Position numbers and translations under genes: made by a program. A stretch of DNA of 64,000 nucleotides from Oligoflexia bacterium (GTDB taxonomy: Bacteria; Bdellovibrionota; UBA1018; CAIPTA01), in assembly GCA_903867855.1 (NCBI GenBank), contig CAIPTA010000179.1, positions 3,108 to 67,107 on the forward strand. The letters run 5' to 3'. The notes beneath the pieces are model-generated. The model searched no databases. It saw only the letters and a program-made list of their open reading frames with translations, and was not told the DNA's origin. This document shows positions 49,089-64,000 of this stretch, piece after piece (the first letter of the stretch is position 1; every line of letters starts with the position of its first letter).

Positions 49089-49122
49089 TCTCTTTCGAAA
49101 AGCGCGGTAAACAAAAAAGGGC

Positions 49123-49521: not shown

Positions 49522-49552
49522 AAAACTCTCCTAAAGGAAGGTGCTGAAACTA

Positions 49553-51528: not shown

Positions 51529-51531
51529 AGA

Positions 51532-52530: not shown

Positions 52531-52635
52531 GGGAGCCTCCGTCTATATATATGTACAAGTTTTTGTCACGAAGCGCGGGAGTCGTCAATGCGAAAGCCTA
52601 GACTAATGCTTCGCATTATCTGCTAGAGTGCCCCC

Positions 52636-53640
52636 ATGAGCACCACCTATTCTCCCCTAGTACAAGAACTCAAAGAAAAAATGGAATTCGAAGGCCCTTT
52701 CCTTGTGAAAGTGCTGCTGCTCCATCTCGATAAGAATGGAAAACCTTATCTAAATCTAGTGCTAGTGGACAAAACCGGCGAAGTGGAAGCGCGCGCTTGG
52801 GAAAATGCCAATCGCTTAGCCGAGCAAGTGAAGCCGCAAGATATTGTGCGCGTCTCCGGCAAAGTAAATCTATTCCAAGGTAAACGCCAAGTGATCGTGG
52901 ACGCCATGGAGCGAGTGCCCGAGGGCACCTATCCGCTCGATCGTTTTCAATCGTCCACCGTTTTCGATGTGCAAAAAATGTATGCGGATATGACCCAGCT
53001 CTTCGAAACTTTAGAAGATCCTTTTGCGAAAAAACTCGCTCTCTCGGTTTTGGCCGATGCAGACATCAAGAAGAAAGTGCTCCGCGCACCTGCCGCCAAA
53101 TCTGTGCACCATGCGTATGTGGGCGGATTGCTCGAACACACTTTGAGCGTCTGCCGCGTGCTGGATTTCCTCGCTGTTCACTACCGCCGCTACTACGGCA
53201 AAGCCGTGAGCCGAGATCTGATGCTCCTCGGCGGACTCTTCCACGATATCGGCAAAATCTATGAGCTCCAATTTGATCGCGCCACGGAATATACCAATGC
53301 CGGCAAACTCGTTGGTCACCTCGTGATGGGCTGCGAACTCATTGACCGCTTTGCGAACAAGATCGAAGGCTTCCCAGAAAACTTGCGACTGCTCGCGAAA
53401 CACCAAGTGCTCGCCCACCACGGCAAGCTGGAATACGGCAGCCCAAAACTTCCGCATACCTTAGAGGCTTTACTCGTGCACTATGTGGACGATCTCGACT
53501 CCAAGGTAAACTCCATCCTCGGCATCATCGCGGCGGATACTACTCCCGGCGAATGGACGGCGAACTCTCGCATGTATGAACGCCCGTTCATGAAGCCCAC
53601 GGATAAGCCACAAATGCAGGGCCCTAGCCCAGGACTATAG
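52636..53640 (+). CDS. YhaM-like 3'-5' exoribonuclease (OB fold plus HD domain)
   Basis: N-terminal OB-fold region, then HHAYVGGLLEHTL and FHDIGK HD motifs. Confidence 0.75.
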   Translation: MSTTYSPLVQELKEKMEFEGPFLVKVLLLHLDKNGKPYLNLVLVDKTGEVEARAWENANRLAEQVKPQDIVRVSGKVNLFQGKRQVIVDAMERVPEGTYPLDRFQSSTVFDVQKMYADMTQLFETLEDPFAKKLALSVLADADIKKKVLRAPAAKSVHHAYVGGLLEHTLSVCRVLDFLAVHYRRYYGKAVSRDLMLLGGLFHDIGKIYELQFDRATEYTNAGKLVGHLVMGCELIDRFANKIEGFPENLRLLAKHQVLAHHGKLEYGSPKLPHTLEALLVHYVDDLDSKVNSILGIIAADTTPGEWTANSRMYERPFMKPTDKPQMQGPSPGL

Positions 53641-53644
53641 ATGC

Positions 53645-53663
53645 AGCGGCCATTCCGCTTTTT
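53645..53663 (+). terminator. Weak candidate rho-independent terminator after the yhaM-like gene
   Basis: AGCGG-CCATT-CCGCT hairpin followed by TTTT, 5 nt after the stop. Confidence 0.35.
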
Positions 53664-53666
53664 CCT

Positions 53667-54161
53667 CTAGCGTAAAAATTTCCCCATCATCAAACAATCG
53701 AAGTATTGGCCATCTAATTTTCGGTATTTTTTAAGTAAGCCTTCTTCCACAAAGCCACATTTTTTATATAAGGCGATAGCAGGAAGATTGGATGTATAAA
53801 CGTGTAACTCTGCCTTCTCTAACCCGTTGCCTTTCGCATGAGCCAAAACAGACTCTAGGAGTTTGAGCCCGAGGCCTTTTCCGCGAAATGCGGGAAGCAG
53901 ACCCATGCCAATCGAACCACGGTGACTGAAGCGCGGATTTTTCTCTGGGAAAAGATCACACCATCCCACCACTTTTTCATTTTGAATGGCATAATAGACC
54001 GCCCCATTCTCGGCAATTAGCTCCCGTTGAAACTTGGCAACCTGCTCAAAAGCCGGAGCCTCTATCATTTCGATATAAATTCGCTCTTTTGCAACAAGAG
54101 AAAGCGCTTCGTAGAAGCTGGGAATAAATTTTTCGCTAGCGTAGGCAATGGTGGCTTCCAT
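53667..54161 (-). CDS. GNAT-family N-acetyltransferase
   Basis: RGKGLGLKLLE acetyl-CoA motif. Confidence 0.75.
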   Translation of the reverse strand: MEATIAYASEKFIPSFYEALSLVAKERIYIEMIEAPAFEQVAKFQRELIAENGAVYYAIQNEKVVGWCDLFPEKNPRFSHRGSIGMGLLPAFRGKGLGLKLLESVLAHAKGNGLEKAELHVYTSNLPAIALYKKCGFVEEGLLKKYRKLDGQYFDCLMMGKFLR

Positions 54162-54177
54162 TGATTCCTCTTATAGT

Positions 54178-54215
54178 AAAAAAAAACGCATAGATTGCGC
54201 TTTTTTCGCAATCTA
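54178..54215 (-). terminator. Rho-independent terminator of the 54216-54785 gene
   Basis: On the minus strand, directly after the stop: TAGATTGCG-AAAAAAG-CGCAATCTA (9-bp stem), then TGCG and a T9 run. Confidence 0.6.
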
Positions 54216-54785
54216 CTAGTGAAGCTTCTTGGGGGGCCCCATATCATCTTCAATTTCTTCAAGCAGCTCTTCCAACTCTTCGTCAGTCACTTCCTCGTCT
54301 GCTGGATCAATGCCGGCATCACGCAGAAATTTATCTGCCACGTGTTCCAGGGCATGATTATCGCGATTGAGTTTGGCGTAAAGATCTTGGCCTTCCCATT
54401 CAAATTGTTCCCACTTGCCACTTGCTTCATCTATCTCTGCAAGAATCGCCTCTAGGCCTTTGCTCTTTTCAAAGCCTTGGGCAAACCAACTGGCTGCTAC
54501 ATCCACCATGCTTTTGAGCTGTTCTGTTACTTTTTCAGGTTTTTCAGAAATATTCGGAGCCAGATCAGCAGAAATATACAAGCTGCCCGCACGCAAGGAG
54601 CTGGCATTCGTTAGCGAAGCGCAAAAAACCACTTCATTAGAGTAGAGATCTGCATATACCAAGAATTCGGAATCCTTCCGCTGCTCTTCAAACTGGTCAT
54701 CGAATAGTTTGCGCATGCTATTAAGGAACTCTACCGGTAGAGCGTTTGGTTTTTTTGCCTGTTTTTTGCGTGTTGGAAGTGCCAT
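54216..54785 (-). CDS. Hypothetical acidic protein
   Basis: 189-aa ORF with a strongly acidic C-terminus, followed by a good terminator. No family recognised. Confidence 0.5.
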   Translation of the reverse strand: MALPTRKKQAKKPNALPVEFLNSMRKLFDDQFEEQRKDSEFLVYADLYSNEVVFCASLTNASSLRAGSLYISADLAPNISEKPEKVTEQLKSMVDVAASWFAQGFEKSKGLEAILAEIDEASGKWEQFEWEGQDLYAKLNRDNHALEHVADKFLRDAGIDPADEEVTDEELEELLEEIEDDMGPPKKLH

Positions 54786-54842
54786 ATACCCCGTCTTATC
54801 TCAGGCCTAGTGCCCAGTAAAGCTCCCTGCTATACTGTTTTC

Positions 54843-55208
54843 ATGGCAAAGTTCATCGAAAGAAGACGTAGTGCTCGTAAATCCTTCCCTGAGATGCCGT
54901 GGATATTTTCGCTCAGTCTCCAGGAAGCTCCAAAAACGGAACTCCCGATCCGCGTGGACGCAGTAAATATGAGCCGCCACGGGATTAAATTTCAATCGAA
55001 TCATAAAATTCCCCTTTTCACTCCCGTTCACGTTCAACTCTTTGAAAAAAAGACCAAAAGAGACCCACTTAAGATTCAAGCGAAGGTAGTGAGAGTGGAA
55101 GAAGTAGATACGGGCAAGGCAGAGAAGATCTTTGGCATCGCCATTCAGTTTGAAACCATGAGCGATGCGGATAGAGCCACGCTAGGGCTCGCCTTTCCGC
55201 CGCTATAG
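54843..55208 (+). CDS. PilZ domain protein (c-di-GMP receptor type)
   Basis: RRRSAR (RxxxR) and NMSRHG (D/NxSxxG) motifs. The start was set at ATG 54843. Confidence 0.65.
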   Translation: MAKFIERRRSARKSFPEMPWIFSLSLQEAPKTELPIRVDAVNMSRHGIKFQSNHKIPLFTPVHVQLFEKKTKRDPLKIQAKVVRVEEVDTGKAEKIFGIAIQFETMSDADRATLGLAFPPL

Positions 55209-56687
55209 TGGATCTGATCTAAAAAAGAGAGCTTGATATAGATGCTCATCTTGCACTTCTCCTTGAGCCATTAAATCAGAGAAGGTGATGGCCACTCTCG
55301 CTAACGCCACACTGGATCGTCGCGAGTAACCTCTGCTTTGGCAACTATCAGCCCAGAGCGCTTTCGCCGACGCCGACCAAGCCTTTACTTGAAACACTTC
55401 TTCCCCCTGAAGCCGCGAATTTGCCTTACCCTGCCTTGCGATCATAGACGCACGCGCTGTGGTGGCGAGTTCACGAAACTCAGCGGTGCTTGCCTTGCAA
55501 GTTTCCAGCTCTCCGCCTTGATGAAGTGGATAGTAAAGATCAATACGATCGAGAAGCGCTGAAGAAATGCGCCGACGATAATGACGAATCTCTGCCCGAC
55601 TACACTGGCATGCATGACGAGAATCTCCAAGCAAACCACAGGGGCATAGATTCGCCGACGCAAGTAATGTGGTTCTGCAGGGCAATCGATAGTGATAATC
55701 GCCTCGGCGCAATCGCAACTCTCCCTCTTCAATAGGAGTTCGCAGACTCTCTAAGACGCTGCGATCCATCTCTAAAACCTCATCAAGATATAAAACTCCC
55801 CCATGGGAAAGACTCAATTCACCAAATTTATTTTTTCCAAGACCACCCAAAAGATTTCCGCGGCTAATGCTGGCATGGGGCGCTCGGAAGGGACGCTCCC
55901 CCTCCCATGTTTCACCACTCATGGCATAGACTGCGCTGATTTCTTGTCCCTCCTCGACTGTGATGGGCGGTAAAATACTCGGCAAAGCGCTTGCCAAAAA
56001 ACTCTTGCCGACACCACGAGGACCAAAGAGTAGAGAGTGATGTCCACCAGCGGCCACTGCGAGCAACATCTGCTTCGCGCTTGCATGGCCCTCCACTTGT
56101 TCGATTTTAAGATAATTCGGGTTGAGGTTCTTCGATGGACGATGAACTTCTTCTCTCCTTTTCCCTCTGCCAATGCGCCGATTTAAAAAATCCACTGCCT
56201 CTTTCAAGCTTTGAAAGCCACCACCACCATCTAATTGAGCAGATTTCAGCACTTCGCTGTTCTCATAGGGCAAAAGTGCAGACGAAAAGAGCTGTTTTTG
56301 AAAAAAACTTGGCAGTGCAAGAGCCTCTACCACCGGCGAAAGACTCCCATCGAGGCGCAATCCACCTAAAACAGCGATCTTATGGAGGCGTTCAATCGAA
56401 AAAATGCCCTCTGAAGCCAATAATACCATCGCGGCAGCAAAATCGAGTGCCTGACTTCCTTCTCGCAAACATTCGGGCAGCACTTGAATCACTATTTTAC
56501 GTGCTGGAACTCGAAATCCCGAACTTTCGAGCGCAGAAAGCACTCTTTCGCGCATACTTTTTGCCTGTAATTGAGCAATTCCTAAAATCTGTAGTGACGG
56601 AAGATGCAAGCTCTGCCTGCATTCCAGCTCAACAGGCATCGCATTGAGACCAAATTGTTGTAACGATAAAATTTTTGCGTAACTCAT
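55203..56687 (-). CDS. yifB: YifB/ComM-family Mg-chelatase-like AAA+ ATPase
   Basis: 494 aa. Lon-like N-domain, Walker A LFGPRGVGKSFLA, C-terminal Mg-chelatase domain. Last recognisable bacterial gene. Confidence 0.85.
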   Translation of the reverse strand: MSYAKILSLQQFGLNAMPVELECRQSLHLPSLQILGIAQLQAKSMRERVLSALESSGFRVPARKIVIQVLPECLREGSQALDFAAAMVLLASEGIFSIERLHKIAVLGGLRLDGSLSPVVEALALPSFFQKQLFSSALLPYENSEVLKSAQLDGGGGFQSLKEAVDFLNRRIGRGKRREEVHRPSKNLNPNYLKIEQVEGHASAKQMLLAVAAGGHHSLLFGPRGVGKSFLASALPSILPPITVEEGQEISAVYAMSGETWEGERPFRAPHASISRGNLLGGLGKNKFGELSLSHGGVLYLDEVLEMDRSVLESLRTPIEEGELRLRRGDYHYRLPCRTTLLASANLCPCGLLGDSRHACQCSRAEIRHYRRRISSALLDRIDLYYPLHQGGELETCKASTAEFRELATTARASMIARQGKANSRLQGEEVFQVKAWSASAKALWADSCQSRGYSRRSSVALARVAITFSDLMAQGEVQDEHLYQALFFRSDPL

Positions 56688-57471
56688 AGATAAATTTTGT
56701 TCTGCAAAACTTTTTCCACGCGTTTTTTTTCAAATCGGCGATCAATATTGGATTTTTTTTCGCGAAGTATGATGGGTAGTGGTAGTAAATGACCTGGGTG
56801 ACACAGCTGTACATGCCGGCAAAGTCTTGCCTATAGACGATTTTGGCGCAGGGGGGTAGGTCAGAGTGCATGTAGTGCCTGTAGAATGCGTCCAATCCAG
56901 CCTGTACATGGCAATTTTCCACATTCTCTTCGACCCTTGCATCCTCTATGACGTTTGCTACAGAGGCCAGGTGGATGTGGCGATACAGAACACAGAACGA
57001 TGCTGTCATCCGCCTAATGAACGATAGCGAGAGACAACCGGGTTTGTCAGGGTCGAGGCAAGAAATGTCGTCCATCAGAGCCGTGTCGTTCACTTCAAGA
57101 TTGAAGGCGCCAAAGCGGGCCATAAGTGCATCCAGAGCCATGGCAACTGCATCCCAGTCCTCTGAGTATGTGTCCCAGTGGAACTGTAGATCTTCGAATG
57201 AGTCCTTGAGTTGTCGAAGTGTCAGTGACCGGATGGTGAGGCCTCCGTGGACAAATGTTGGCCAGAAAGAGTTGAGGCGTATGTCCATGGTGCTTGGGAA
57301 GAATTTGGCCCGGTATCTGGCGATCAAAAGACCTAGCAGGTGCATTTCATTCAGCATTACGTCGGCCGTGATTGGATCGTGCAGCCTTGTGTTCCAAATC
57401 CACTGATCCCATGCCTCTTTTGGGAGGTTGGCCTCTCCCCTTTCGAAATCCCTATTCCATCTATGCAGCAT
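56629..57471 (-). CDS. Hypothetical protein A of the foreign segment; C-terminus and stop unreliable
   Basis: ATG at 57471. The reading frame runs through the breakpoint and stops only inside the yifB 5' end, so the last ~20-45 codons are probably not native. No family recognised. Confidence 0.4.
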   Translation of the reverse strand: MLHRWNRDFERGEANLPKEAWDQWIWNTRLHDPITADVMLNEMHLLGLLIARYRAKFFPSTMDIRLNSFWPTFVHGGLTIRSLTLRQLKDSFEDLQFHWDTYSEDWDAVAMALDALMARFGAFNLEVNDTALMDDISCLDPDKPGCLSLSFIRRMTASFCVLYRHIHLASVANVIEDARVEENVENCHVQAGLDAFYRHYMHSDLPPCAKIVYRQDFAGMYSCVTQVIYYHYPSYFAKKNPILIADLKKNAWKKFCRTKFIYELRKNFIVTTIWSQCDAC

Positions 57472-57706
57472 TGAACTTCCTGTCGTCGGTCAGCTTCTCT
57501 ATCATGCAGGCGATTTCAGGGAGAACCGAGTTGGCATGTGCTATCTGTGCCACAGCGAGCCTCCACTCAAAGACGTCCGATTTTGGGTAATGGCAAAATT
57601 TGTGATCTTTCAATCCCAGCTCATGAAGTGGTGTGTACTTTATGTCCTTGTTGTCTGGTGGTTTGAAATCAAGCGGTATGCACGATTTCTTGTTATTTCG
57701 GTACAT
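57461..57706 (-). CDS. Hypothetical protein B (81 aa)
   Basis: First ATG at 57706 (the track's GTG at 57715 is discounted). Its TAG overlaps the ATG of ORF A (ATGCTGCATAG). The AT-rich box ends 24 nt upstream. Confidence 0.35.
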   Translation of the reverse strand: MYRNNKKSCIPLDFKPPDNKDIKYTPLHELGLKDHKFCHYPKSDVFEWRLAVAQIAHANSVLPEIACMIEKLTDDRKFNAA

Positions 57707-57708
57707 TG

Positions 57709-57722
57709 TTGCCACGTGGCAA
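57709..57722. promoter_or_regulatory. 14-bp perfect palindrome TTGCCACGTGGCAA (E-box core CACGTG) in a divergent intergenic region
   Basis: Read directly. It lies between the T8A6 tract (57731-57744) and the ATG of ORF B. Confidence 0.4.
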
Positions 57723-57753
57723 TTTGGATGTTTTTTTTAAAAAATAGTAGGTG

Positions 57754-58218
57754 ATGCTGGAGATTTGGGAGGTGATATTGCAGAGAGTAGCCTGTCTCAA
57801 AGGTTCCGTCAATCTGATCCTTGCGCATAAGGGACTCTATGAATCAACCCGATCGGACTTGTCTTTATGGAAGCGATTGGAGGCGCAGGTCGCCTTTTAC
57901 AACTCATACAAGACGTTCAGTCGGCGTCTCAAACATCTCGGGGTTAGGCGGCGATTAATAGCCTGGGTAGCAATGACCAGAGATCCATGTTGTGGCTGTG
58001 GTAATGACTACGCCATGCCACTGTATTACCTTGGTATCAAGCTTTGCACGTATTGTATGCCTGTGTTTACTGTGACCCATGCAGACCTTGAGCGACGGCT
58101 GGGTCCTCGGCGCGCCAGAGCTGTACATTTGCCATTTTCGTGGATTGACATGGGCCATGGAAAGAAGGAAAAGGTTTACCACAGGAAGCATCTGATGCAG
58201 TTGGGATTGCTACTGTAG
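57754..58218 (+). CDS. Hypothetical protein C with F-box-like N-terminus and C-terminal Cys cluster
   Basis: MLEIWEVILQRVACLKGSVNLILAHKGLYESTRSDLSLWKRL fits the F-box hydrophobic pattern (L-x-EIW-x-x-IL ... LWKRL). It also has CCGCG...CTYC. Confidence 0.45.
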   Translation: MLEIWEVILQRVACLKGSVNLILAHKGLYESTRSDLSLWKRLEAQVAFYNSYKTFSRRLKHLGVRRRLIAWVAMTRDPCCGCGNDYAMPLYYLGIKLCTYCMPVFTVTHADLERRLGPRRARAVHLPFSWIDMGHGKKEKVYHRKHLMQLGLLL

Positions 58219-58596
58219 CTTGATTCGTAACTGATGCGATGACACCATTGGATCTCTGAATTGCACCATGGTGGTCTTATGAACTACGACGCACTCCAAA
58301 GGATCTACCACTGCCTTTGGCTTCTGGCTAGGCATGCAATGGACATAGAGTATCAGAAAAGCCATTATTGCAAACAAGTAAAATCCAAATGAGATAAAGA
58401 TTGCTATGTCATTAAAGTTCTGTTGGCCGGTGTGATCGCATAATGTGCCGTCCCATCCACTCTCGCAAATCCAGTCGCATCTCTTATCTCGAATCCATGT
58501 GGGGGTGTAGACGTAGGTAGCATGTGCTGGCAGGGGGTTATCACATTGCATACATATGTCAAACGGTTTCCCTGGTATGGACACCTTTATGCACAT
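58210..58596 (-). CDS. Hypothetical Cys-rich single-TM protein D
   Basis: First ATG at 58596. CxxC pairs, an EGF-like CESGWDGTLC stretch, and the TM helix IAIFISFGFYLFAIMAFLILYV. Confidence 0.4.
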   Translation of the reverse strand: MCIKVSIPGKPFDICMQCDNPLPAHATYVYTPTWIRDKRCDWICESGWDGTLCDHTGQQNFNDIAIFISFGFYLFAIMAFLILYVHCMPSQKPKAVVDPLECVVVHKTTMVQFRDPMVSSHQLRIKLQ

Positions 58597-58643
58597 TTCA
58601 CAGAGTATTCGGAAGGAGAGGATATCCAATCCCCGTGCATAGT

Positions 58644-59042
58644 TTATTGACGTCTTTTTTTACTGACAGTAAAGCATGCCTTGCAGAATCCATTCTGTTG
58701 CATGCAAATCCGCAAGGACAGCTGGATTTTGCAATGTTCACATTGTCGTACACAGTTGGAGCAGAAGAGAGATATCCTGCTGTTTGAATTTCGTTTCATC
58801 TTGAGCCCCTCCTCCTTGAGCTGTAGAAATTTTGATCTGGGCTTCCATATTCCACACAGAGAACAGTTGTCCACTGCCTCGTCATTTTCTACTTGCCATG
58901 AGTACCCGTTCCCCAAGGGAAATTTCTTCCAATAGGTGGGCCAGAGCGAAGGGGGTAGGGAGTCAATGGCTTCAGCGGGTACTGGGGGTGGCATTGCTAG
59001 CAAATAGGGAGAGAGCATATGTGTCTTGCCTGATGACGTCAT
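58644..59042 (-). CDS. Hypothetical zinc-finger-like protein E
   Basis: The ATG lies inside the GATGACGTCATC palindrome. Four CxxC pairs (CSLC, CSNC, CEHC, CKAC). The stop TAA is embedded in AATAAA. Confidence 0.4.
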   Translation of the reverse strand: MTSSGKTHMLSPYLLAMPPPVPAEAIDSLPPSLWPTYWKKFPLGNGYSWQVENDEAVDNCSLCGIWKPRSKFLQLKEEGLKMKRNSNSRISLFCSNCVRQCEHCKIQLSLRICMQQNGFCKACFTVSKKRRQ

Positions 59043-59265
59043 CCTTAATCCTAGTGTTTTCCATGGCTGTAACGCTGCCTGGCATTAATACTATTTTCCG
59101 GCAATTCTTTAGGTTTAGGACCTCAACGCGCCCTTTGCTGTCGAAGTTTGGGTTCACAATCACACAACGTGGTCCTAACTTATCGGTGCTCCATTTGTGC
59201 ATCCCATTTAACCCTCTCAACACTTTTGGCTTGATTGCGACAACTTGGTTTGGTTGCAGCTGCAT
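58972..59265 (-). CDS. Hypothetical protein G (97 aa)
   Basis: First ATG at 59265, with TATATATA 36 nt upstream. Its 3' end overlaps ORF E by 71 nt in another frame. Confidence 0.35.
   Translation of the reverse strand: MQLQPNQVVAIKPKVLRGLNGMHKWSTDKLGPRCVIVNPNFDSKGRVEVLNLKNCRKIVLMPGSVTAMENTRIKDDVIRQDTYALSLFASNATPSTR
59032..59043. promoter_or_regulatory. 12-bp palindrome GATGACGTCATC (CRE/ATF-like TGACGTCA core), copy 1
   Basis: Read directly. It contains the ATG of ORF E and is preceded on that strand by TTAAG. Confidence 0.5.
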
Positions 59266-59341
59266 GGTGTGGGTGATACCCAATCAGGTCTTCCAACTGA
59301 CTATATATAGCCGAACGGAAAAAAAAAGTCATTTTTTTTAA

Positions 59342-59353
59342 GATGACGTCATC
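59342..59353. promoter_or_regulatory. 12-bp palindrome GATGACGTCATC, copy 2
   Basis: Read directly. It lies in the divergent G/F intergenic region next to the A9 and T8 runs and is preceded by TTAAG. Confidence 0.5.
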
Positions 59354-59374
59354 AGAATTTCAACCCTTCGCCTG

Positions 59375-59926
59375 ATGGTGCCCACATGTGCACTGTTTTT
59401 CGTTCAAATGGCACATCCTCTTGTGCTTAGAAGGACATATTACATTCCAAAGGTCTCTTTCGAGCAAGGGCTTAAGCGCATACATACACCAGAAACCATG
59501 CTTTCAAGGCTCCCTGGATATCGCGTGGGCAGGATATATGAACCGCAGCTTGTGAAGAACTCTACCTATTTGACATTCGATCTGGAGCCCATGTCACACC
59601 TCCTGCCTAAGGGCAAAAGGACAGTAACAACATTCTCAGAAAATCGCACAAAAGTTTCTATGATCTACATGAGGAACGATAGGGTAACACTTATGGCTAC
59701 TGTGCGTGTATGTCCTGCCAAGTTTGGACACATTTTGCAGGTCAATTGTACTTTATTCAGCAATAGCCGTTGGTTTTACTCAGGATTGATGGACTTATTC
59801 CCGTATCTTCCCAAATTTCCGGTCAAGATGTCCTTGGCCTGCAAGAAGAAATTTCGCAACTACAGGCTGTTGGCTATGAAGAAAAGCATCGCCTCACAGG
59901 AATCTGATGATGTGTCTTTTGAATAA
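59375..59926 (+). CDS. Hypothetical protein F (183 aa)
   Basis: Clean ATG ORF. The stop TAA is embedded in AATAAA (59922-59927). Confidence 0.45.
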   Translation: MVPTCALFFVQMAHPLVLRRTYYIPKVSFEQGLKRIHTPETMLSRLPGYRVGRIYEPQLVKNSTYLTFDLEPMSHLLPKGKRTVTTFSENRTKVSMIYMRNDRVTLMATVRVCPAKFGHILQVNCTLFSNSRWFYSGLMDLFPYLPKFPVKMSLACKKKFRNYRLLAMKKSIASQESDDVSFE

Positions 59927-60069
59927 AATTCCAATATGTTTTGGCCAAATCCTTTGCAATTCTTGCCTCGTGTTGTGCATCGCGGGTCATCTTCCATTGA
60001 TACCATGACAGGATCAAGAGCAGTATGCATACCATTGGCCAGATCATATCAGATCAGGACCTTGTGATT

Positions 60070-60333
60070 TTATAACTGCTTTCTCCTCCTCAGCTTGTTG
60101 GCCAGGATTAGGAATTTCTCTGCAACTAGTTGTTGTGCCACCTCGTTCCTTTCCCGCAGCTCCCTTATTGAAGTAGACCAGAGTAGGCAGAATAGTAACG
60201 ACGCAGTCACTATGGGCGGGCTGGACAGGTAAAGGGGACGGAACAATAGTGTTAGAACACTTGTCTGAAGCAGCACCCATAGGAACAGCCAATATTGCTC
60301 GTTTCGCTTTTCGTTCATGGTGCGTGACGTCAT
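60070..60333 (-). CDS. Hypothetical small two-TM protein (87 aa)
   Basis: The ATG lies within TGACGTCA and overlaps the stop of the 610-aa ORF (TGATG). It has two hydrophobic helices. Confidence 0.35.
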   Translation of the reverse strand: MTSRTMNEKRNEQYWLFLWVLLQTSVLTLLFRPLYLSSPPIVTASLLFCLLWSTSIRELRERNEVAQQLVAEKFLILANKLRRRKQL

Positions 60334-60336
60334 CAG
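60325..60336. promoter_or_regulatory. TGACGTCATCAG, copy 3 of the CRE-like element
   Basis: Read directly. It contains the ATG of the 87-aa ORF and the stop of the 610-aa ORF. Confidence 0.45.
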
Positions 60337-62165
60337 TACAGCGCTTCCTGTTGTAGTTGCCGCATGGCCCGATCAGTGTCTGCTGGCAGGAGTGTGGGAT
60401 CGACCGGTTTTTCCGGAGGGGGTTTATGGTCTGCCGTGGCGCCTCCATGTGGTCCCAATATGGTGCCACCCCTGGCTATGTTATTAGGCCACCCCCAGGA
60501 GGTTTGATTGTCGTTGGGATATGGATTAGGGCCAGCACTACCTCCATCCCCTTCTAAATAAAATTGTCCAGCCATTTGATTTGGGAGAGTTGGTCGTGTT
60601 GTTGCAACTGGAGCTAGTCCTACTCTTGCAAGCCCTACTCCTCCGCCTGCCGCCGCTCCTACTCCCACCGCTGCTGCTGGTCCCCCTACTCCCGCCGCTG
60701 CCGCTGGTCCTCCTACTCCCACCGCTGCTGCTGGTCCTCCTACTCCCACCGCTGCTGCTGGTCCTCCTACTCCCACCGCTGCTGCTGGTGCCGCTGGTGC
60801 TGGAGGAGACACTGGCCTTACGATTCCCGCTCCTGGGGCTGGTCCGGCTGCAGGAATAATGCCGTCTGCAAACCGTACTCCTCTTCCTCTACCTGCATCT
60901 AACCCCACTCTAGCAGCTCCACCGGCTCCACCAGCACCGTCACCTCTTCCACCAACCGCAGCCCTTGCACCATCTCTAGCGTCACCTCCACCCCTTCCTG
61001 CTCCACCAGCCGCAGCCCTTGCACCATCTCCACCACCACCCCCTCCAGCTCCACCACCACCCCCTCCAGCTCCACCACCACCCCCTCCAGCACCACCACC
61101 ACCCCTCCCTCTTCCTCCTGCTGCCATCATTGGTGAGGGTCCTGCTCTGATACCCATCTGCGCTGCCAATATATCATACAACGTGTTTATTTGCGCCTCG
61201 TTCCTTCTCTGGTAGCTTGTAATGAGTTCCATCACAGGATTCAGATCAAAGGATGGTGGTGCTAAATCTCCAAGATTATCAATCTTTGCATTGATAGCGG
61301 CCAATTCTCGCTGAAATGGAGTGAGGTCCACGGTAGGCATGGCCGCTCCCGCTCCTCCTCCTGCAGATACCGTGATGGAAGACCCTCCTCTGATAGTTGG
61401 TTCTGCCTCTGGCACATCTACTTGTGGTACCACAAATCGCAGTCCGGATAGCCTGGTCACATAATCTGTGGCATCCACTTGATTTAGGGTCTTTACTAGA
61501 GTTGATCGAGCCTCGTGTAACGTTTTCACCAGGGCTGATACATCCACATCTCTGTATGCGTGCTGTATGTCTTTGTTGTATCTTGTTGCATTGAGGCCGT
61601 TGGCATTGCCGTTGCAGCACAGTAGCTGAGTTCCAACTGCTATGGCGAAAGGTGCGTAGAATTCTTCGCTTCGTCTGAGCCGTATGCAGGTCTCTCGCAG
61701 ACCCCAGGAAGATATGGGCAGGAACTCCTTACCTTGCAAGTACTGCACTACCCTGGTCTCTGCCGCCTCGACCTTTGGGTGAAATCCGTGGACGACAAAG
61801 TGACGCATCTGTAGCTTGAGGGATCTAACTATGTCGAACATGGTTTTGCCTAGGCCGTTTGTGCTTCCAGCTTGGGTGAATCGTTTGCCCACATAGTCGC
61901 TCCAGGCCTTGCTCTCGAATCTCTGCAGATCCTTGTCTGTCATCATCGTTTGTGAACTGTTTCGTACCACCCACACTGCCTCGACGTTGCTTACAGAGGC
62001 TCCGCACATCAAGTCCCTGTAACGGATGTCCAGCTGCTCCAGCTCATCGTACTTTTCCATCTCTTTCGCCAGCGAGGTTTGCAGCTCGTGAGATGGCATG
62101 GCTCTGATGTCCACCACTACACCTGTGTCTACCTGGTCGTAGAATCTGCCTCCAATTTGGCTCAT
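60333..62165 (-). CDS. Hypothetical 610-aa protein: ~330-aa globular N-domain plus ~230-aa Gly/Ala/Arg/Pro low-complexity region plus short C-terminal tail
   Basis: First ATG at 62165 (the track's TTG at 62204 is discounted). Longest ORF of the segment. Its repeats are GGGGGGA, DGARAA and GPAAAVGVG. No family recognised. Confidence 0.6.
   Translation of the reverse strand: MSQIGGRFYDQVDTGVVVDIRAMPSHELQTSLAKEMEKYDELEQLDIRYRDLMCGASVSNVEAVWVVRNSSQTMMTDKDLQRFESKAWSDYVGKRFTQAGSTNGLGKTMFDIVRSLKLQMRHFVVHGFHPKVEAAETRVVQYLQGKEFLPISSWGLRETCIRLRRSEEFYAPFAIAVGTQLLCCNGNANGLNATRYNKDIQHAYRDVDVSALVKTLHEARSTLVKTLNQVDATDYVTRLSGLRFVVPQVDVPEAEPTIRGGSSITVSAGGGAGAAMPTVDLTPFQRELAAINAKIDNLGDLAPPSFDLNPVMELITSYQRRNEAQINTLYDILAAQMGIRAGPSPMMAAGGRGRGGGGAGGGGGGAGGGGGGAGGGGGGDGARAAAGGAGRGGGDARDGARAAVGGRGDGAGGAGGAARVGLDAGRGRGVRFADGIIPAAGPAPGAGIVRPVSPPAPAAPAAAVGVGGPAAAVGVGGPAAAVGVGGPAAAAGVGGPAAAVGVGAAAGGGVGLARVGLAPVATTRPTLPNQMAGQFYLEGDGGSAGPNPYPNDNQTSWGWPNNIARGGTILGPHGGATADHKPPPEKPVDPTLLPADTDRAMRQLQQEALY
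60631..60792. repeat. Tandem 27-bp repeat, 5 well-conserved copies plus 1 degenerate copy
   Basis: Unit CCTACTCCCACCGCTGCTGCTGGTCCT at 60658, 60685, 60712, 60739 and 60766. It encodes GPAAAVGVG on the minus strand. Confidence 0.9.
61030..61109. repeat. Tandem 21-bp repeat, ~3.8 copies
   Basis: Unit CCACCACCACCCCCTCCAGCT at 61030, 61051 and 61072. It encodes the GGGGGGA repeats on the minus strand. Confidence 0.9.
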
Positions 62166-62242
62166 GGTGGTTGGATCGTGGTATCTAGTTATACTGGTTA
62201 ACAATAGGAACGCATCTTCCCCTCATGACCCTTCCTGGCTGA

Positions 62243-62252
62243 GATGACGTAC
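62243..62252. promoter_or_regulatory. GATGACGTAC, near-copy of the CRE-like element
   Basis: Read directly. It lies in the divergent region between the 610-aa ORF and ORF J. Confidence 0.35.
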
Positions 62253-62254
62253 CA

Positions 62255-62596
62255 ATGGAGGCCCTCGTGTCGGATGTGCGTGCTCTGACTAGGATGAGAG
62301 AGAGGGGGGGTAGGATACGTTGGATAGGCCCCAACGAGGCGATGGTATTGGATGTTATGGAGTGGTCGGATTCACTGTCGCATGCGCTCAAAGAAAAGCA
62401 TCCGTTTTTATTGATGTGTTTCGAGTCGGCACCCGATTCTCTCAGCGGATTTGGCGTTAGGCTCAAGCTCGACCCCACAGAGGAGATCTGCAGGAGAGTG
62501 GGCATTGCCTGTGTTGTGATTGCCATACTTTCAGCTGTGACTGCCTATTGCTTGGATCTGTTCAGTCGACGACCCTTCTACATCCCCATGCCATGA
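62255..62596 (+). CDS. Hypothetical tail-anchored membrane protein J (113 aa)
   Basis: ATG ORF with a C-terminal TM helix VGIACVVIAILSAVTAYCLDLF. GATGACGTAC lies 3 nt upstream of the ATG. Confidence 0.4.
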   Translation: MEALVSDVRALTRMRERGGRIRWIGPNEAMVLDVMEWSDSLSHALKEKHPFLLMCFESAPDSLSGFGVRLKLDPTEEICRRVGIACVVIAILSAVTAYCLDLFSRRPFYIPMP

Positions 62597-62960
62597 AGTC
62601 TGATATGGTGATGTCATCGTCCTCGTTGATGGACTCGTCCGACTCAGATTGCTCTGGATTCTCCATGTGCTCCTTCCACTTGGTTTCCATGGCTTCGGTC
62701 TCGGCAACGAGGGATCTGGTATCGATGATGGAGCACAGGATTTCGGGGTCGATGTCTTGGTTGTGTTGCTCTGCTATGAGTTGGCAGTATTTGTGCAGCT
62801 CAGTATGCCCATGGATCTCCTCCACCTCTCCTTCCCTCCTTTCCAAATAGATGGGTTTGGGAGGCCAGGTCTTGGTCAGTCGCATCACGTCCCTCGGTTC
62901 CATCCACTGTCCAGGTGGGAGGCGGACTCGTCGGCGTTGGATTTGCAGATGCAGTGCCAT
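62562..62960 (-). CDS. Hypothetical acidic protein K (132 aa)
   Basis: ATG ORF. The AT-rich box and A10 run lie ~50 nt upstream on its strand. Confidence 0.4.
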   Translation of the reverse strand: MALHLQIQRRRVRLPPGQWMEPRDVMRLTKTWPPKPIYLERREGEVEEIHGHTELHKYCQLIAEQHNQDIDPEILCSIIDTRSLVAETEAMETKWKEHMENPEQSESDESINEDDDITISDFMAWGCRRVVD

Positions 62961-63021
62961 GGATTGGGGAGAAGCTGTAGACTTGGCCGCAAGGGTAGGA
63001 TTCAGGTCATTTTTTTTTTAA

Positions 63022-63028
63022 TATAAAA
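63022..63028 (+). promoter_or_regulatory. TATAAAA box preceded by a T10 run
   Basis: 22 nt upstream of ATG 63051. Confidence 0.4.
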
Positions 63029-63050
63029 TCCACAGCACAGGCCATGCAAG

Positions 63051-63164
63051 ATGTGGACTGTACATATCATCTTACTCATTGTCATACCAGCCATAGTTAC
63101 GTTAGTGGTTGACCTGTATGTAGGGTCAAAAGTGACACAGCAACTCCCTCAATATAAAAGGTAA
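63051..63164 (+). CDS. Candidate 37-aa single-TM mini-protein
   Basis: Own translation: MWTVHIILLIVIPAIVTLVVDLYVGSKVTQQLPQYKR. TATAAAA ends 22 nt upstream. Below the track's size cutoff. Confidence 0.3.
   Translation: MWTVHIILLIVIPAIVTLVVDLYVGSKVTQQLPQYKR
63153..63159 (+). promoter_or_regulatory. TATAAAA box
   Basis: 24 nt upstream of ATG 63184 (ORF L). Confidence 0.45.
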
Positions 63165-63183
63165 CTGGGTGAGGACAGCAAGA

Positions 63184-63510
63184 ATGAACTGTCTTCCTTT
63201 CCTTCTGCTCGCCTTGACGACGCTGGTTTCCGCTGATGATGATCACCGCCATGACGATACCGGTTACTATGGGACCCTTGGGATGATTCTCTTGGTCATC
63301 ATCCTGATTTGCTTTGTCGCCGCCGTCAGCTACACTCCCATGCCTTTTGACTATCAGAGCTTCTATGGCGGTGGAAGAAACGAATGTAAGCCACAGGAGA
63401 TCAACGTTCGCATCCTTCGTGGCGATTCTCTGCCCATGAGCGACTGTAAACACCAGACATTGGTGCAAGGTCCCGATGGGAATATTTACCTTACAGATGC
63501 GGGGGTTTAA
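63184..63510 (+). CDS. Hypothetical type I membrane protein L (108 aa)
   Basis: ATG 63184 gives a signal peptide MNCLPFLLLALTTLVSA, then an acidic/His stretch, then the TM helix LGMILLVIILICFVAAV. The stop is embedded in AATAAA. Confidence 0.5.
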   Translation: MNCLPFLLLALTTLVSADDDHRHDDTGYYGTLGMILLVIILICFVAAVSYTPMPFDYQSFYGGGRNECKPQEINVRILRGDSLPMSDCKHQTLVQGPDGNIYLTDAGV

Positions 63511-63544
63511 TAAAGTATTTCCATTGCATTTGAAAGTAATACCC

Positions 63545-63551
63545 TATAAAG
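63545..63551 (+). promoter_or_regulatory. TATAAAG box
   Basis: 24 nt upstream of ATG 63576 (ORF M). Confidence 0.4.
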
Positions 63552-63575
63552 GTATACCAGCCGTCTAGTGTCACG

Positions 63576-63752
63576 ATGGATCACGACCTAGCTGAAGCGT
63601 TGCGTAAAGAGATTCAACGAACCGAGAAAGATTTAGCGTTGATAGCATCTAGGATGGACCCATTGGAGAGGGAGATGGCAGAGAAGGAGTTCAACGCCAA
63701 GGTAGAGCGTGCCCGGCAGCGGCGGAGGGAGAAAGGGGGGGTGGGCCGTTGA
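63576..63752 (+). CDS. Candidate 58-aa coiled-coil protein M
   Basis: Own translation: MDHDLAEALRKEIQRTEKDLALIASRMDPLEREMAEKEFNAKVERARQRRREKGGVGR. TATAAAG ends 24 nt upstream. It ends just after a G8 run. Confidence 0.3.
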   Translation: MDHDLAEALRKEIQRTEKDLALIASRMDPLEREMAEKEFNAKVERARQRRREKGGVGR

Positions 63753-63755
63753 CAC

Positions 63756-63762
63756 TATTTAA
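63756..63762 (+). promoter_or_regulatory. TATTTAA box
   Basis: 25 nt upstream of ATG 63788 (ORF N). Confidence 0.35.
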
Positions 63763-63787
63763 GAAAGGTGAATACTTTGGCTCAGCG

Positions 63788-64000
63788 ATGCTCAGACAAT
63801 TTGACATAGAGGAACACGCCGCTCATAAGGTGGCGGCTAAGGACTCTGTTGTCACTCAGGCGCAAAGCTCCAGTAATATTTTGGATATCGACCCTGAAGC
63901 GAACGATTGCCACACCTTCTTCGGAAACAGGAAGCCCTTTGGTTCGCAGAAGATGCACTACACGGCATCTGCCTTGTCCTTTGTAACCAAAGCATTGGTC
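63788..64000 (+). CDS. Partial hypothetical ORF N, open to the right edge
   Basis: ATG 63788 (MLRQFDIEEHAAHKV...) gives 71 codons with no stop. TATTTAA ends 25 nt upstream. Confidence 0.3.
   Translation, partial: MLRQFDIEEHAAHKVAAKDSVVTQAQSSSNILDIDPEANDCHTFFGNRKPFGSQKMHYTASALSFVTKALV

What the first reader, a model, noticed from the sequence alone, without database searches (positions are those of the whole stretch)
56688..64000. Bacterial chromosome abruptly gives way to ~7.3 kb of TATA-box-type, SD-less, virus-like DNA
The two sides of ~56.7 kb look unrelated.

Left side (bacterial):
- about 55 genes, nearly all with clear bacterial identities;
- long co-directional operons with ATGA/TGATG-coupled starts;
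- GGAG-type ribosome-binding sites, for example GGAGGAG before the 10483 start.

Right side (foreign):
- about 15 ORFs on alternating strands, mostly 37-183 aa plus one of 610 aa, none recognisable to me;
- every extended ORF start in the track is a TTG/GTG that looks artefactual, and the first ATG has no SD (e.g. CCAACCACCATG, CCCAATCCATG, CACCCACACCATG);
- intergenic regions carry A/T homopolymers of 8-10 nt, TATA-type boxes and TGACGTCA palindromes;
- three stop codons sit inside AATAAA;
- proteins have eukaryote-flavoured features: RGG/Gly-Ala low complexity, an F-box-like N-terminus, an EGF-like Cys pattern, and signal-peptide/TM mini-proteins.

Overall GC looks similar on both sides by eye, so the shift is in organisation rather than base composition.

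Alternative explanations:
- (a) an assembly or binning chimera, or contamination. This is most likely.
- (b) deliberate or accidental concatenation.
- (c) genuine integration of eukaryotic or archaeal virus-like DNA next to yifB. This would be extraordinary.
Basis: partly seen in the sequence, partly recalled or inferred. Interest (0 to 1): 0.85.

Follow-up and report, generated by a model that had tools for sequence, protein, structure and literature searches.

The report
Bacterial contig fused to eukaryotic-virus DNA
The window is a lake-bacterium contig joined at one exact point to a piece of a large eukaryote-infecting DNA virus from the same lake samples; other assemblies do not contain this join, so it is almost certainly a technical chimera and not a virus integrated in a bacterium.

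Summary

- **Breakpoint.** It lies at 56767-56772, a 6-bp overlap GTATGA. This is 79 nt right of the yifB start, not at 56688.
- **Left side.** Ordinary bacterium: GC 0.49, CpG o/e 1.06, Shine-Dalgarno sites.
- **Right side.** Same GC, but CpG o/e 0.69. Codon-usage correlation with the left is -0.12. TATA boxes sit about 30 nt upstream of ATGs and AATAAA sits at stops. There is no Shine-Dalgarno excess.
- **Independent contigs.** Two contigs carry yifB with normal bacterial genes upstream. Five contigs (4.5-108 kb) carry the foreign DNA uninterrupted across its breakpoint. There the 318-aa gene that the window truncates is intact.
- **Co-occurrence.** Both partners occur as clean contigs in the same ENA records of the Buck et al. 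2021 stratified-lake metagenomes.
- **The foreign DNA.** It belongs to a genome of more than 100 kb that is almost entirely ORFans. The exceptions are a CHMP2A-like Snf7, a GT25 glycosyltransferase and Cys-rich glycoproteins. The best guess, about 0.55 and not verified, is a nuclear-replicating freshwater mirusvirus (Styxvirales-like), a group described from these same assemblies.
- **Real integration.** Not excluded without reads, but about 4% likely.

The parts
55203..56687 (-). Bacterial yifB/comM (Mg-chelatase-like AAA ATPase, 494 aa), the last bacterial gene before the breakpoint.
   Evidence: NCBIfam TIGR00368, E 7e-90. The identical protein lies on a 97.8-kb contig and a 41.3-kb contig, both with bacterial genes upstream.
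56688..56766 (.). Bacterial intergenic DNA upstream of yifB. It is still part of the bacterial contig.
   Evidence: Identical to L001.
56767..56772 (.). Breakpoint: the hexamer GTATGA, shared by the bacterial and the foreign sequence (6-bp microhomology).
   Evidence: blastn limits and alignment A2. Scaffold_5894 of sample SAMEA6872991 (L005/L017) starts exactly at 56767.
56767..57471 (-). The 5' 235 codons of a foreign 318-aa gene, cut off by the join. In the window the frame reads on into bacterial DNA, giving an artefactual 280-aa ORF at 56629-57471.
   Evidence: The gene is intact at 318 aa in L002, L003, L004, L015 and the 108-kb contig. The chimeric 280-aa product is not on record anywhere.
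57461..57706 (-). Foreign ORFan, 81 aa.
   Evidence: Called identically on 8 foreign contigs. No Pfam hit is recorded for it.
57754..58218 (+). Foreign ORFan, 154 aa.
   Evidence: No Pfam hit at E<=1. A homologue of 47% identity is present in the related element L009.
58210..58596 (-). Foreign Cys-rich protein of 128 aa with a hydrophobic, transmembrane-like segment.
   Evidence: ORF translation. Only sub-threshold Pfam hits.
58644..59042 (-). Foreign Cys-rich (zinc-ribbon-like) ORFan, 132 aa. It starts ATG-ACG-TCA, and its stop lies inside AATAAA.
59302..59351 (.). Divergent promoter-like region: TATATATA, then A9/T8 runs, then the palindrome ATGACGTCAT, upstream of the 183-aa gene.
59375..59926 (+). 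Foreign ORFan, 183 aa. Its stop lies inside AATAAA.
   Evidence: The exact protein lies on 7 contigs, the longest 108 kb.
60070..60333 (-). Foreign small hydrophobic (membrane-like) ORFan, 87 aa.
60333..62165 (-). Foreign 610-aa gene. A conserved N-terminal domain of about 250 aa is followed by a Gly/Ala/Pro-rich repetitive tail.
   Evidence: The N-domain family has 82 clusters at 50% identity, 76 of them at E<1e-10. No Pfam, PDB or BFVD match. The AF2 model has pLDDT 76.
60656..61105 (.). Tandem repeats of 27, 21 and 54 nt inside the 610-aa gene. Assemblies are unstable here.
   Evidence: TRF. L002 has 100 N at this place. Variants of 603 and 610 aa exist.
62267..62885 (.). Two overlapping foreign ORFans: 109 aa on the + strand (62267-62596) and 107 aa on the - strand (62562-62885).
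   Evidence: Gene calls on L002 and L006, mapped to the window by the offsets.
63153..63510 (+). A TATA box (AATATAAAAGG) 31 nt upstream, then a 108-aa protein with a hydrophobic N-terminus and a hydrophobic internal segment. The stop lies inside AATAAA.
63545..63752 (+). A TATA box (CTATAAAGG) 31 nt upstream, then a 58-aa ORF.
63788..64000 (+). Start of the foreign 978-aa gene (P0001), cut by the end of the window. TATTTAA lies about 30 nt upstream.

Best explanation
The window is a technical chimera. It has two parts:
- about 56.8 kb of a freshwater bacterial chromosome;
- the first 7.2 kb or more of a fragment from an unrelated large DNA virus of a eukaryote that is present in the same lake-water samples.

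The two parts are joined inside a 6-bp chance microhomology (GTATGA, 56767-56772).

**Shown.**
- Each partner exists elsewhere as long contigs that run straight through its own breakpoint.
- The join truncates a viral gene.
- The two sides differ in every compositional and regulatory signature.

**Inferred.**
- The join arose from one or a few chimeric library molecules or reads that the assembler followed where coverage was thin. The project used MEGAHIT and pooled samples in lake-wise co-assemblies.
- The contig was then binned as bacterial because 89% of the window is bacterial and the GC is identical.

**The viral part.** It uses host nuclear machinery: TATA boxes about 30 nt before the ATG, AATAAA at stops, no Shine-Dalgarno sites, CpG depletion. 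It most likely belongs to a nuclear-replicating mirusvirus (Styxvirales-like). That assignment is inferred at about 0.55 and is not tested.
For: **1. Breakpoint mapped to the base.**
- The window equals bacterial L001 (99.99%) up to 56772 and foreign L002 (100%) from 56767.

**2. The bacterial side continues normally elsewhere.**
- The exact yifB protein lies on a 97,833-bp contig (ERZ1426819, also in NCBI) and on a 41,308-bp contig (ERZ27313591).
- In both, a 129-aa protein, peptidase S49 and S1 genes lie upstream.

**3. The foreign side continues normally elsewhere.**
- Five independent contigs cross the foreign breakpoint with the 318-aa gene intact: scaffold_84 (46.4 kb), k141_15589 (17.6 kb), k141_460433 (4.5 kb), a Logan contig (7.9 kb), and a 108,058-bp contig in the same ENA record ERZ1426819.
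- ERZ27313591 also holds both partners as separate clean contigs.

**4. Different origins.**
- Tetranucleotide correlation 0.46.
- CpG o/e 0.69 versus 1.06.
- RSCU correlation -0.12.
- TATA, AATAAA and Shine-Dalgarno statistics.
- GACGTC occurs 0 times in 56.8 kb of bacterial DNA and 5 times in 7.2 kb of foreign DNA.

**5. No integration hallmarks.**
- No tRNA or other RNA family in the window.
- No recombinase or any other Pfam domain in the right-hand ORFs.
- No repeat shared between the two sides.

**6. Only a short foreign tail is deposited in NCBI.**
- Foreign proteins of 57.7-63.75 kb are in NCBI. Those left of the breakpoint, and the 978-, 724- and 400-aa proteins and Snf7 further right, are not.
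- This fits a bacterial MAG contig with a short foreign end.

**7. The dataset is prone to this.**
- 0.2-um filters without prefiltration, MEGAHIT single-sample assemblies and co-assemblies, MetaBAT binning (PMC8121793).
- The same assemblies gave 1,390 mirusvirus capsid hits and mixed bins (PMC12768974).

**8. Viral and eukaryotic nature of the foreign DNA.**
- Snf7 most similar to human CHMP2A, E 3e-16.
- GT25, TNFR_c6 (weak) and Ephrin_rec_like (faint) hits.
- A 546-aa protein with a hydrophobic N-terminus, many Cys repeats and many NxS/T sequons.
- Of roughly 60-75 genes seen, almost all have no Pfam hit.
Against: - **No reads were available.** The join cannot be shown directly to lack read support.
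- **The breakpoint is not random.**
  - A 6-bp microhomology is unlikely by chance for blunt concatenation (about 1 in 4,096).
  - An independent SPAdes scaffold of sample SAMEA6872991 starts at exactly the first shared base.
  - Together these suggest that junction-bearing molecules really existed in that library. That is compatible with an in-vitro template-switch chimera, but also with a real recombinant.
- **The source record of the window was never recovered.**
  - The chimeric ORF is not on record.
  - GTDB representative genomes have neither partner.
  - What lies beyond 64000 is therefore unknown.
- **The mirusvirus assignment is indirect.** No capsid, portal, terminase or triplex gene was seen in the 52 kb read or in the further 10 kb of gene list.
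Confidence: 0.85

Rival explanations
1. Post-assembly concatenation or a deliberate splice. Two separate sequences, a bacterial contig end and a viral contig start, were written head to tail without a spacer when the record or the window was built. No molecule or read ever spanned the join.
For: - A viral scaffold from a sister assembly starts exactly at 56767, as expected if the right part is a contig that begins there.
- The chimeric ORF is absent from a gene catalogue of 153 billion gene positions.
Against: - The bacterial sequence would have to end at 56766 while its next six bases happen to equal the first six of the viral contig (about 1 in 4,096).
- The clean bacterial contigs do not end there.
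- The window runs colinear past the end of that 3.5-kb scaffold with no k-mer duplication.
- NCBI holds the window's viral proteins but not the neighbours outside it. This suggests a deposited contig, not an ad hoc splice.
Confidence: 0.08
2. Genuine integration. A subpopulation of the bacterium took up environmental viral DNA, for example by natural transformation. It joined the DNA upstream of yifB by microhomology-mediated illegitimate recombination.
For: - The 6-bp microhomology is the kind of signature left by illegitimate end-joining.
- The breakpoint seems to be a recurrent feature of the graph of sample SAMEA6872991.
- Both organisms share the same water samples.
Against: - Every readable contig shows the uninterrupted versions of both loci.
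- No second junction, anchor homology, recombinase or duplication is seen.
- The insert cuts a viral gene and carries no selectable function.
- It contains 5 GACGTC sites, a palindrome that this bacterium has none of in 56.8 kb.
- Stable capture of more than 7 kb of eukaryotic-virus DNA by a bacterium is a priori very rare.
Confidence: 0.04
3. The right-hand DNA is not viral. It is a fragment of a eukaryotic nuclear genome (protist or small metazoan), or a mobile element of the bacterium itself.
For: - TATA and poly(A) signals and CpG depletion fit any Pol II-transcribed nuclear DNA.
- Snf7/CHMP2 is a cellular gene.
Against: - About 62 kb of gene list has 88% coding density, no evident introns and almost no recognisable domain. 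This is unlike cellular chromosomes.
- Contigs are clonal (99.3-100% identical) across samples.
- Related elements share gene order, and the N-terminal domain forms a family of 82 clusters in metagenomes.
- Against a bacterial element: no Shine-Dalgarno excess, eukaryote-type codon bias (AGG/AGA), and no phage or plasmid domain.
Confidence: 0.07

Closest known systems
Chimeric or contaminated contigs in metagenome-assembled genomes (inter-genome misassembly)
   Same: - An abrupt switch of k-mer, codon and regulatory signatures at a single base.
- A gene truncated at the join.
- Both partners present as clean contigs in the same samples.
- The foreign part forms a short tail on a long bacterial contig.
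   Different: - The partner is a eukaryotic virus, not another bacterium.
- The join sits in a 6-bp microhomology, not in a shared repeat of k-mer length. It therefore needs a chimeric read or molecule, not a graph collapse.
Mirusviricota, intron-rich nuclear lineages (putative order Styxvirales; Medvedeva et al. 2025, PMC12768974)
   Same: - Freshwater, and from the same BUCK21-1 assemblies.
- Genome over 100 kb.
- Very few Pfam-annotated genes.
- No replication or transcription genes seen.
- A Snf7 gene, reported there as a mirusvirus core function absent from nucleocytoviruses.
- An HNH-like gene.
- Pol II-type promoter and poly(A) signals, which fit nuclear reproduction.
- A 213-kb all-mirusvirus bin exists for the sample that yielded scaffold_84.
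   Different: - No HK97 capsid, triplex, portal or terminase gene was found in the 52 kb examined.
- No introns are evident in this stretch.
- GC is 49%, below the 53-63% of the Styx_03 genomes seen in the supplement.
- Membership of scaffold_84 in any published mirusvirus MAG could not be checked.
Herpesvirales, including Alloherpesviridae
   Same: - Nuclear-type TATA and poly(A) gene organisation.
- CpG depletion.
- Gly/Ala repeat proteins and TNFR-like Cys-rich proteins.
- Many ORFans.
   Different: - No sequence or fold match to any herpesvirus protein. The best hit was RaHV-2 ORF128, TM 0.19, E 0.06.
- No DNA polymerase, terminase or capsid gene seen.
- Relatives are numerous in plankton metagenomes, which points to microbial hosts.
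Homology-facilitated or microhomology-mediated illegitimate recombination during bacterial natural transformation
   Same: A short (3-10 bp) microhomology at a junction between resident and foreign DNA.
   Different: - No anchor homology and no second junction.
- No support in any other assembly.
- The donor would be a eukaryotic virus.

Membership tests
Inter-genome assembly chimera | Each side of the join continues with different sequence of its own kind in independent assemblies. | tested here: met
   Two bacterial contigs and five foreign contigs cross their respective breakpoints.
Inter-genome assembly chimera | A step change in composition and codon usage exactly at the join. | tested here: met
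   The breakpoint is mapped to 6 bp.
Inter-genome assembly chimera | Spanning reads absent or aberrant: clipped reads, a coverage step, or duplicates only. | not testable with these tools
   No read data. The JGI contig collection holds neither the chimeric junction nor the native viral one, so that negative result is uninformative.
Integrated genomic island, prophage or horizontally acquired insert | Two junctions, with the host sequence resuming beyond the insert, and flanking direct repeats or an att site. | tested here: inconclusive
   Only one junction lies inside the window. No repeat is shared between the two sides. The sequence beyond 64000 is not available.
Integrated genomic island, prophage or horizontally acquired insert | An integrase or recombinase, or a tRNA target, at the border. 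| tested here: not met
   No Pfam domain in the 10 right-hand ORFs. No RNA family in the window.
Integrated genomic island, prophage or horizontally acquired insert | The same insert at the same locus in related genomes or assemblies. | tested here: not met
   The yifB upstream region is bacterial in both other contigs.
Mirusviricota | The virion module: HK97-fold MCP, triplex 1 and 2, portal, terminase, jelly-roll protein. | tested here: inconclusive
   None was recognised by Pfam in about 62 kb of gene list. That is at most a third of a genome of about 200 kb, and Pfam is not tuned to these proteins. The AF2 model of the 314-aa candidate failed, pLDDT 33.
Mirusviricota | A Snf7 (ESCRT-III) gene, given as a core function by PMC12768974. 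| tested here: met
   PF03357 on the 213-aa protein. CHMP2A is the best PDB match, E 3e-16.
Mirusviricota (Styxvirales/Okeanovirales type) | No DNA polymerase or RNA polymerase, a low share of Pfam-annotated genes, and spliceosomal introns. | tested here: inconclusive
   No polymerase was seen, and about 5% of genes carry any Pfam hit. The genome is incomplete and introns were not analysed.
Nucleocytoviricota | Hallmark genes: double jelly-roll MCP, A32 ATPase, PolB, D5 primase-helicase, VLTF3. | tested here: not met
   No such Pfam hit in the about 62 kb seen. Snf7 is reported absent from nucleocytoviruses.
Herpesvirales / Alloherpesviridae | The conserved terminase ATPase, capsid proteins and DNA polymerase. 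| tested here: not met
   No hits in the region seen. The fold search of the conserved N-domain gave only non-significant matches.

The most novel reading that the evidence does not exclude
The junction is physically real in the lake. A strain of this bacterium carries at least 7 kb of DNA from a nuclear-replicating eukaryotic giant virus, joined upstream of the competence-associated gene yifB/comM by 6-bp microhomology-mediated recombination. That would be virus-to-bacterium gene flow caught in the act. The exact coincidence between the breakpoint and a contig start in an independent assembly of sample SAMEA6872991 keeps this reading alive.
Probability: 0.04. Interest if true: 0.85.

Novelty: not a real feature. 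Interest (0 to 1): 0.2.

Why it matters
**As a biological claim it does not matter much.**
- The evidence says this is not a virus integrated in a bacterium. It is a misjoin of two co-occurring genomes.

**It matters for data hygiene.**
- A public bacterial MAG, apparently also in NCBI, seems to carry a tail of 7-10 kb of eukaryotic-virus DNA.
- That tail would appear in databases as bacterial ORFans, or as false 'horizontal transfer from eukaryotes'.

**The by-product is mildly interesting.**
- The foreign partner is a clonal genome of more than 100 kb, made almost entirely of ORFans, with Pol II-type gene signals.
- It holds a conserved, structurally unmatched protein domain shared by 82 sequence clusters in metagenomes.
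- It probably belongs to the recently described nuclear mirusviruses.

Tried and rejected
**Searches that found nothing**
- Pfam on the 10 window ORFs and on 10 further foreign proteins: nothing above noise.
- The search for homologous proteins, three searches (978-aa protein, N-domain, N-domain profile): self hits only.
- IMG/VR scans with the 516-aa protein, the N-domain profile and the conserved 203-aa protein: no relatives.
- GTDB representative genomes, searched with the 978-aa protein and with yifB: no hit. The source genome and the bacterium's taxonomy therefore stayed unidentified.
- JGI exact-pattern scans for the chimeric junction and for the native viral junction: both empty, so uninformative.
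- Exact look-up of the chimeric 280-aa ORF, to find the source record: not on record.
- N-domain profile against PDB sequences: nothing.
- AF2 model of the N-domain (pLDDT 76) searched with Foldseek against PDB and BFVD: no match with TM above 0.2.
- AF2 model of the 314-aa protein without an alignment: pLDDT 33, unusable. No fold search was run on it.
- Rfam on the whole window: no hits.

**Ideas rejected**
- TGACGTCA as a promoter element. There are only 4 copies in 27 kb of foreign DNA, and two are Met-Thr-Ser codons.
- A shared repeat as the cause of the misjoin. Nothing longer than about 16-20 nt is shared, and nothing at the breakpoint.
- 'Co-binning' of the two partners, which I first inferred from ERZ1426819. 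I withdrew this because that accession may be a whole metagenome assembly and not a bin.
- Checking whether scaffold_84 belongs to a published mirusvirus MAG. The supplements held here do not list contigs.

Full report
**Observation**

The window changes character abruptly near 56.7 kb, and the change is far larger than the variation inside the bacterial part.
- Tetranucleotide usage of 7.3-kb windows correlates at 0.89-0.97 with the bacterial reference everywhere in 1-56 kb. It drops to 0.46 for 56001-63300.
- G+C does not change: 0.490 versus 0.491.
- CpG observed/expected falls from 1.06 to 0.65-0.69. TpG/CpA rises from 1.02 to about 1.25.
- Relative synonymous codon usage correlates at 0.92 between the two halves of the bacterial part. 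The correlation is -0.12 between the bacterial part and the right-hand 7.2 kb, and 0.81 between those 7.2 kb and the rest of the foreign genome recovered later. The foreign genes prefer AGG/AGA and avoid CGC/GCG.

**Left side**

The left side is an ordinary bacterium.
- It encodes methylmalonyl-CoA decarboxylase alpha, a sensor kinase with a sigma-54 response regulator, cytochrome c oxidase subunit I, a QrcB/C-like fusion and YifB.
- Further genes are GAPDH, PGK, TIM, ResB and multihaem cytochromes.

**Exact breakpoint**

- Exact-protein look-ups brought in other contigs carrying the same genes.
- By blastn, window 45203-56772 equals the bacterial contig L001 (99.99%). Window 56767-64000 equals the foreign scaffold L002 (100%, apart from a 100-N gap in L002).
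- The alignment shows the switch inside a shared hexamer, GTATGA, at 56767-56772.
- The finding's start coordinate, 56688, is therefore 79 nt too far left. Positions 56688-56766 are the genuine bacterial yifB upstream region.
- On the foreign side the join cuts a 318-aa gene after codon 235. In the window the frame runs on into bacterial DNA and gives an artefactual 280-aa ORF. That product is not on record anywhere.

**Is the join supported elsewhere?**

No.
- The identical YifB lies on a 97,833-bp contig (ENA ERZ1426819, also in NCBI) and on a 41,308-bp contig (ERZ27313591). In both, the genes upstream of yifB are bacterial: a 129-aa protein, peptidase S49 and ribosomal protein S1-like.
- The foreign DNA runs uninterrupted across its breakpoint in five independent contigs:
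  - scaffold_84 (46.4 kb);
  - k141_15589 (17.6 kb);
  - k141_460433 (4.5 kb);
  - a Logan contig (7.9 kb);
  - a 108,058-bp contig, again in ERZ1426819.
- Two ENA records (ERZ1426819 and ERZ27313591) therefore hold both partners as separate clean contigs. I cannot tell whether ERZ1426819 is a bin or a whole assembly, so I do not claim co-binning.

**What the source record probably looks like**

- The window's foreign proteins between 57.7 and 63.75 kb (154, 183, 610, 108 and 58 aa) are held by NCBI.
- The foreign proteins just left of the breakpoint (314 and 303 aa) are not. Nor are those beyond 63.8 kb (978, 724 and 400 aa, and Snf7).
- The simplest reading is a deposited bacterial MAG contig with a foreign tail of roughly 7-10 kb.
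- I could not retrieve that record. GTDB representative genomes contain neither partner.

**How the join arose (inference)**

- The samples come from the stratified-lake project of Buck et al. 2021.
  - The water was not prefiltered and was collected on 0.2-um filters.
  - Assembly was with MEGAHIT, per sample and in 53 co-assemblies.
  - Binning was with MetaBAT (PMC8121793).
- The two genomes share no repeat longer than about 16-20 nt, and none at the breakpoint. A de Bruijn graph could therefore not have merged them without a read that contains the junction.
- Two details suggest such a molecule existed.
  - The 6-bp microhomology has a chance of about 1 in 4,096 under blunt concatenation.
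  - An independently assembled SPAdes scaffold of sample SAMEA6872991 (L005/L017) begins at exactly the first shared base, 56767. That is where a graph vertex would lie if a bacterial path and a viral path converged.
  - A Logan contig from another run ends 11 nt away.
- From my own knowledge, not tested here:
  - template-switch chimeras made during library amplification typically sit on such microhomologies;
  - MEGAHIT's rescue of low-count k-mers between dead ends can turn a single such read into a contig.
- A biological recombinant cannot be excluded without reads. Four points argue against it.
  - Every readable contig shows the uninterrupted loci.
  - There is no recombinase, tRNA or repeat.
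  - A viral gene is cut.
  - The foreign tail holds five GACGTC sites, while 56.8 kb of bacterial DNA holds none.
- I put real integration at about 4% and post-assembly concatenation at about 8%.

**What the foreign DNA is**

- I rebuilt 52.2 kb of it by walking along contigs. Gene lists for about 10 kb more, plus contigs of 80.6 and 108 kb, show a genome well above 100 kb.
- Coding density is 88%.
- Gene signals are of the eukaryotic nuclear type:
  - TATAWA lies 28-74 nt upstream of 25% of ATGs, with a cluster at 28-32 nt (background 1.8%; bacterial genes 4%);
  - AATAAA lies at or just after 20% of stops (background 1.5%; bacterial genes 4%);
  - SD-like motifs are not enriched (9% against a background of 12.6%), while bacterial genes show 37% against 9%.
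- Inside the window, the 108-aa, 58-aa and 978-aa genes each have a TATA-type box about 30 nt upstream. Three stops lie inside AATAAA.
- Of roughly 60-75 genes seen, only a few have any Pfam hit:
  - a 213-aa Snf7 whose best solved relative is human CHMP2A (E 3e-16);
  - a family-25 glycosyltransferase;
  - weak TNFR_c6 and faint ephrin-receptor-like Cys-rich domains.
- By reading the sequences only:
  - a 546-aa protein has a hydrophobic N-terminus, many Cys repeats and many NxS/T sequons;
  - a 245-aa protein looks like a DEDD exonuclease;
  - a 249-aa protein looks HNH-like.
- The N-terminal roughly 250 aa of the window's 610-aa protein define a real family.
  - An exhaustive HMMER search found 82 clusters at 50% identity, 76 of them at E<1e-10.
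  - All have the domain at the N-terminus, followed by variable low-complexity tails.
  - Relatives sit in syntenic ORFan neighbourhoods.
  - The domain has no Pfam, PDB-sequence, PDB-fold or BFVD-fold match.
- These features point to a large nuclear-replicating DNA virus of a eukaryote. They do not fit a cellular chromosome or a bacterial element.

**Closest known group**

- Medvedeva et al. 2025 (PMC12768974) screened these same mOTUs assemblies. BUCK21-1 gave 1,390 capsid hits.
- They describe intron-rich mirusvirus orders, of which Styxvirales is prevalent in fresh water. These viruses:
  - lack DNA and RNA polymerases;
  - have only about 14% of genes annotated by Pfam;
  - are predicted to replicate in the nucleus;
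  - carry Snf7 as a core function not found in nucleocytoviruses.
- Their tables list a 9-contig, 212,903-bp, all-mirusvirus bin from SAMEA6872992, the sample that gave scaffold_84. They also list a mixed bin from SAMEA6872991.
- This fits well, but it is not a membership test.
  - I saw no capsid, triplex, portal or terminase gene in the part of the genome I could read.
  - No introns are evident there.
  - GC (49%) is lower than in the Styx_03 genomes listed.
  - I could not check contig membership.
- I therefore give the mirusvirus reading about 0.55.
- Herpesvirales and Nucleocytoviricota hallmarks were not found.

**Verdict**

- As a biological feature the bacterium-virus junction is most likely not real.
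- Its practical importance is as a curation flag for a public MAG.
- The viral fragment is a minor but genuine curiosity.

Noticed in passing
window 1-56766 versus 56767-64000: The palindrome GACGTC (AatII-type site) is absent from 56.8 kb of bacterial DNA but occurs 5 times in the 7.2-kb foreign part. Shuffles predict about 8 for the whole window. This may reflect restriction-site avoidance by the bacterium.
   Followed up: partly
window 60656-61105 (inside the 610-aa gene); L002 11334-11433: The Gly/Ala/Pro-rich tandem repeats (units of 27, 21 and 54 nt) are where assemblies disagree. L002 has 100 N there, L003 has indels, contigs L007 and L008 start there, and protein variants of 603 and 610 aa exist.
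   Followed up: partly
window 61270-62165 (-): The N-terminal domain of about 250 aa belongs to a family of 82 clusters at 50% identity in metagenomes. Invariant residues include W88, G127, E136 and R164-R165. It has no Pfam, PDB or BFVD counterpart, although the AF2 model is fairly confident (pLDDT 76).
   Followed up: yes
window 59034-59041, 59344-59351, 60325-60332: The TGACGTCA palindromes coincide with ATG-ACG-TCA. Two of them are the Met-Thr-Ser starts of the 132-aa and 87-aa ORFs. The third could start a 10-codon mini-ORF ahead of the 183-aa gene.
   Followed up: partly
L006 about 15827-15906 (foreign contig, outside the window): Three tandem copies of T-run + ACTTGACTAGGT lie just upstream of the DEDD-exonuclease-like 245-aa gene. 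A similar T-run + CCCAAGTCAAGT element follows the Snf7 gene.
   Followed up: no
L002 5575-7125 (foreign 516-aa protein): It contains VGSTGIGHNFVTPKSDIDV, which reads like a Pol-beta-type nucleotidyltransferase motif (G[GS]...D.D). Pfam gives no hit.
   Followed up: no
L006 12995-13606 versus L011 4103-4726: A 203-aa protein is 86% identical to its counterpart in a related element, whereas the other shared proteins there are only 27-59% identical. It is the most constrained gene in the neighbourhood, and its function is unknown.
   Followed up: no
L013 18392-19141 (foreign 249-aa protein): HNH-endonuclease-like Cys/His motifs (CxxC ... DH ... CxxCN). Homing endonucleases are reported as frequent in mirusvirus introns.
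   Followed up: no
window 1-64000: No Rfam family at gathering score, tRNA included, anywhere in 64 kb.
   Followed up: yes
ENA records ERZ1426543 and ERZ1426828: Further records of the same project carry contigs of this element (69,950 bp) or of a 44%-identical relative (12.9 kb, with a weak TNFR_c6 hit). Such viral contigs are therefore widespread in that dataset.
   Followed up: partly
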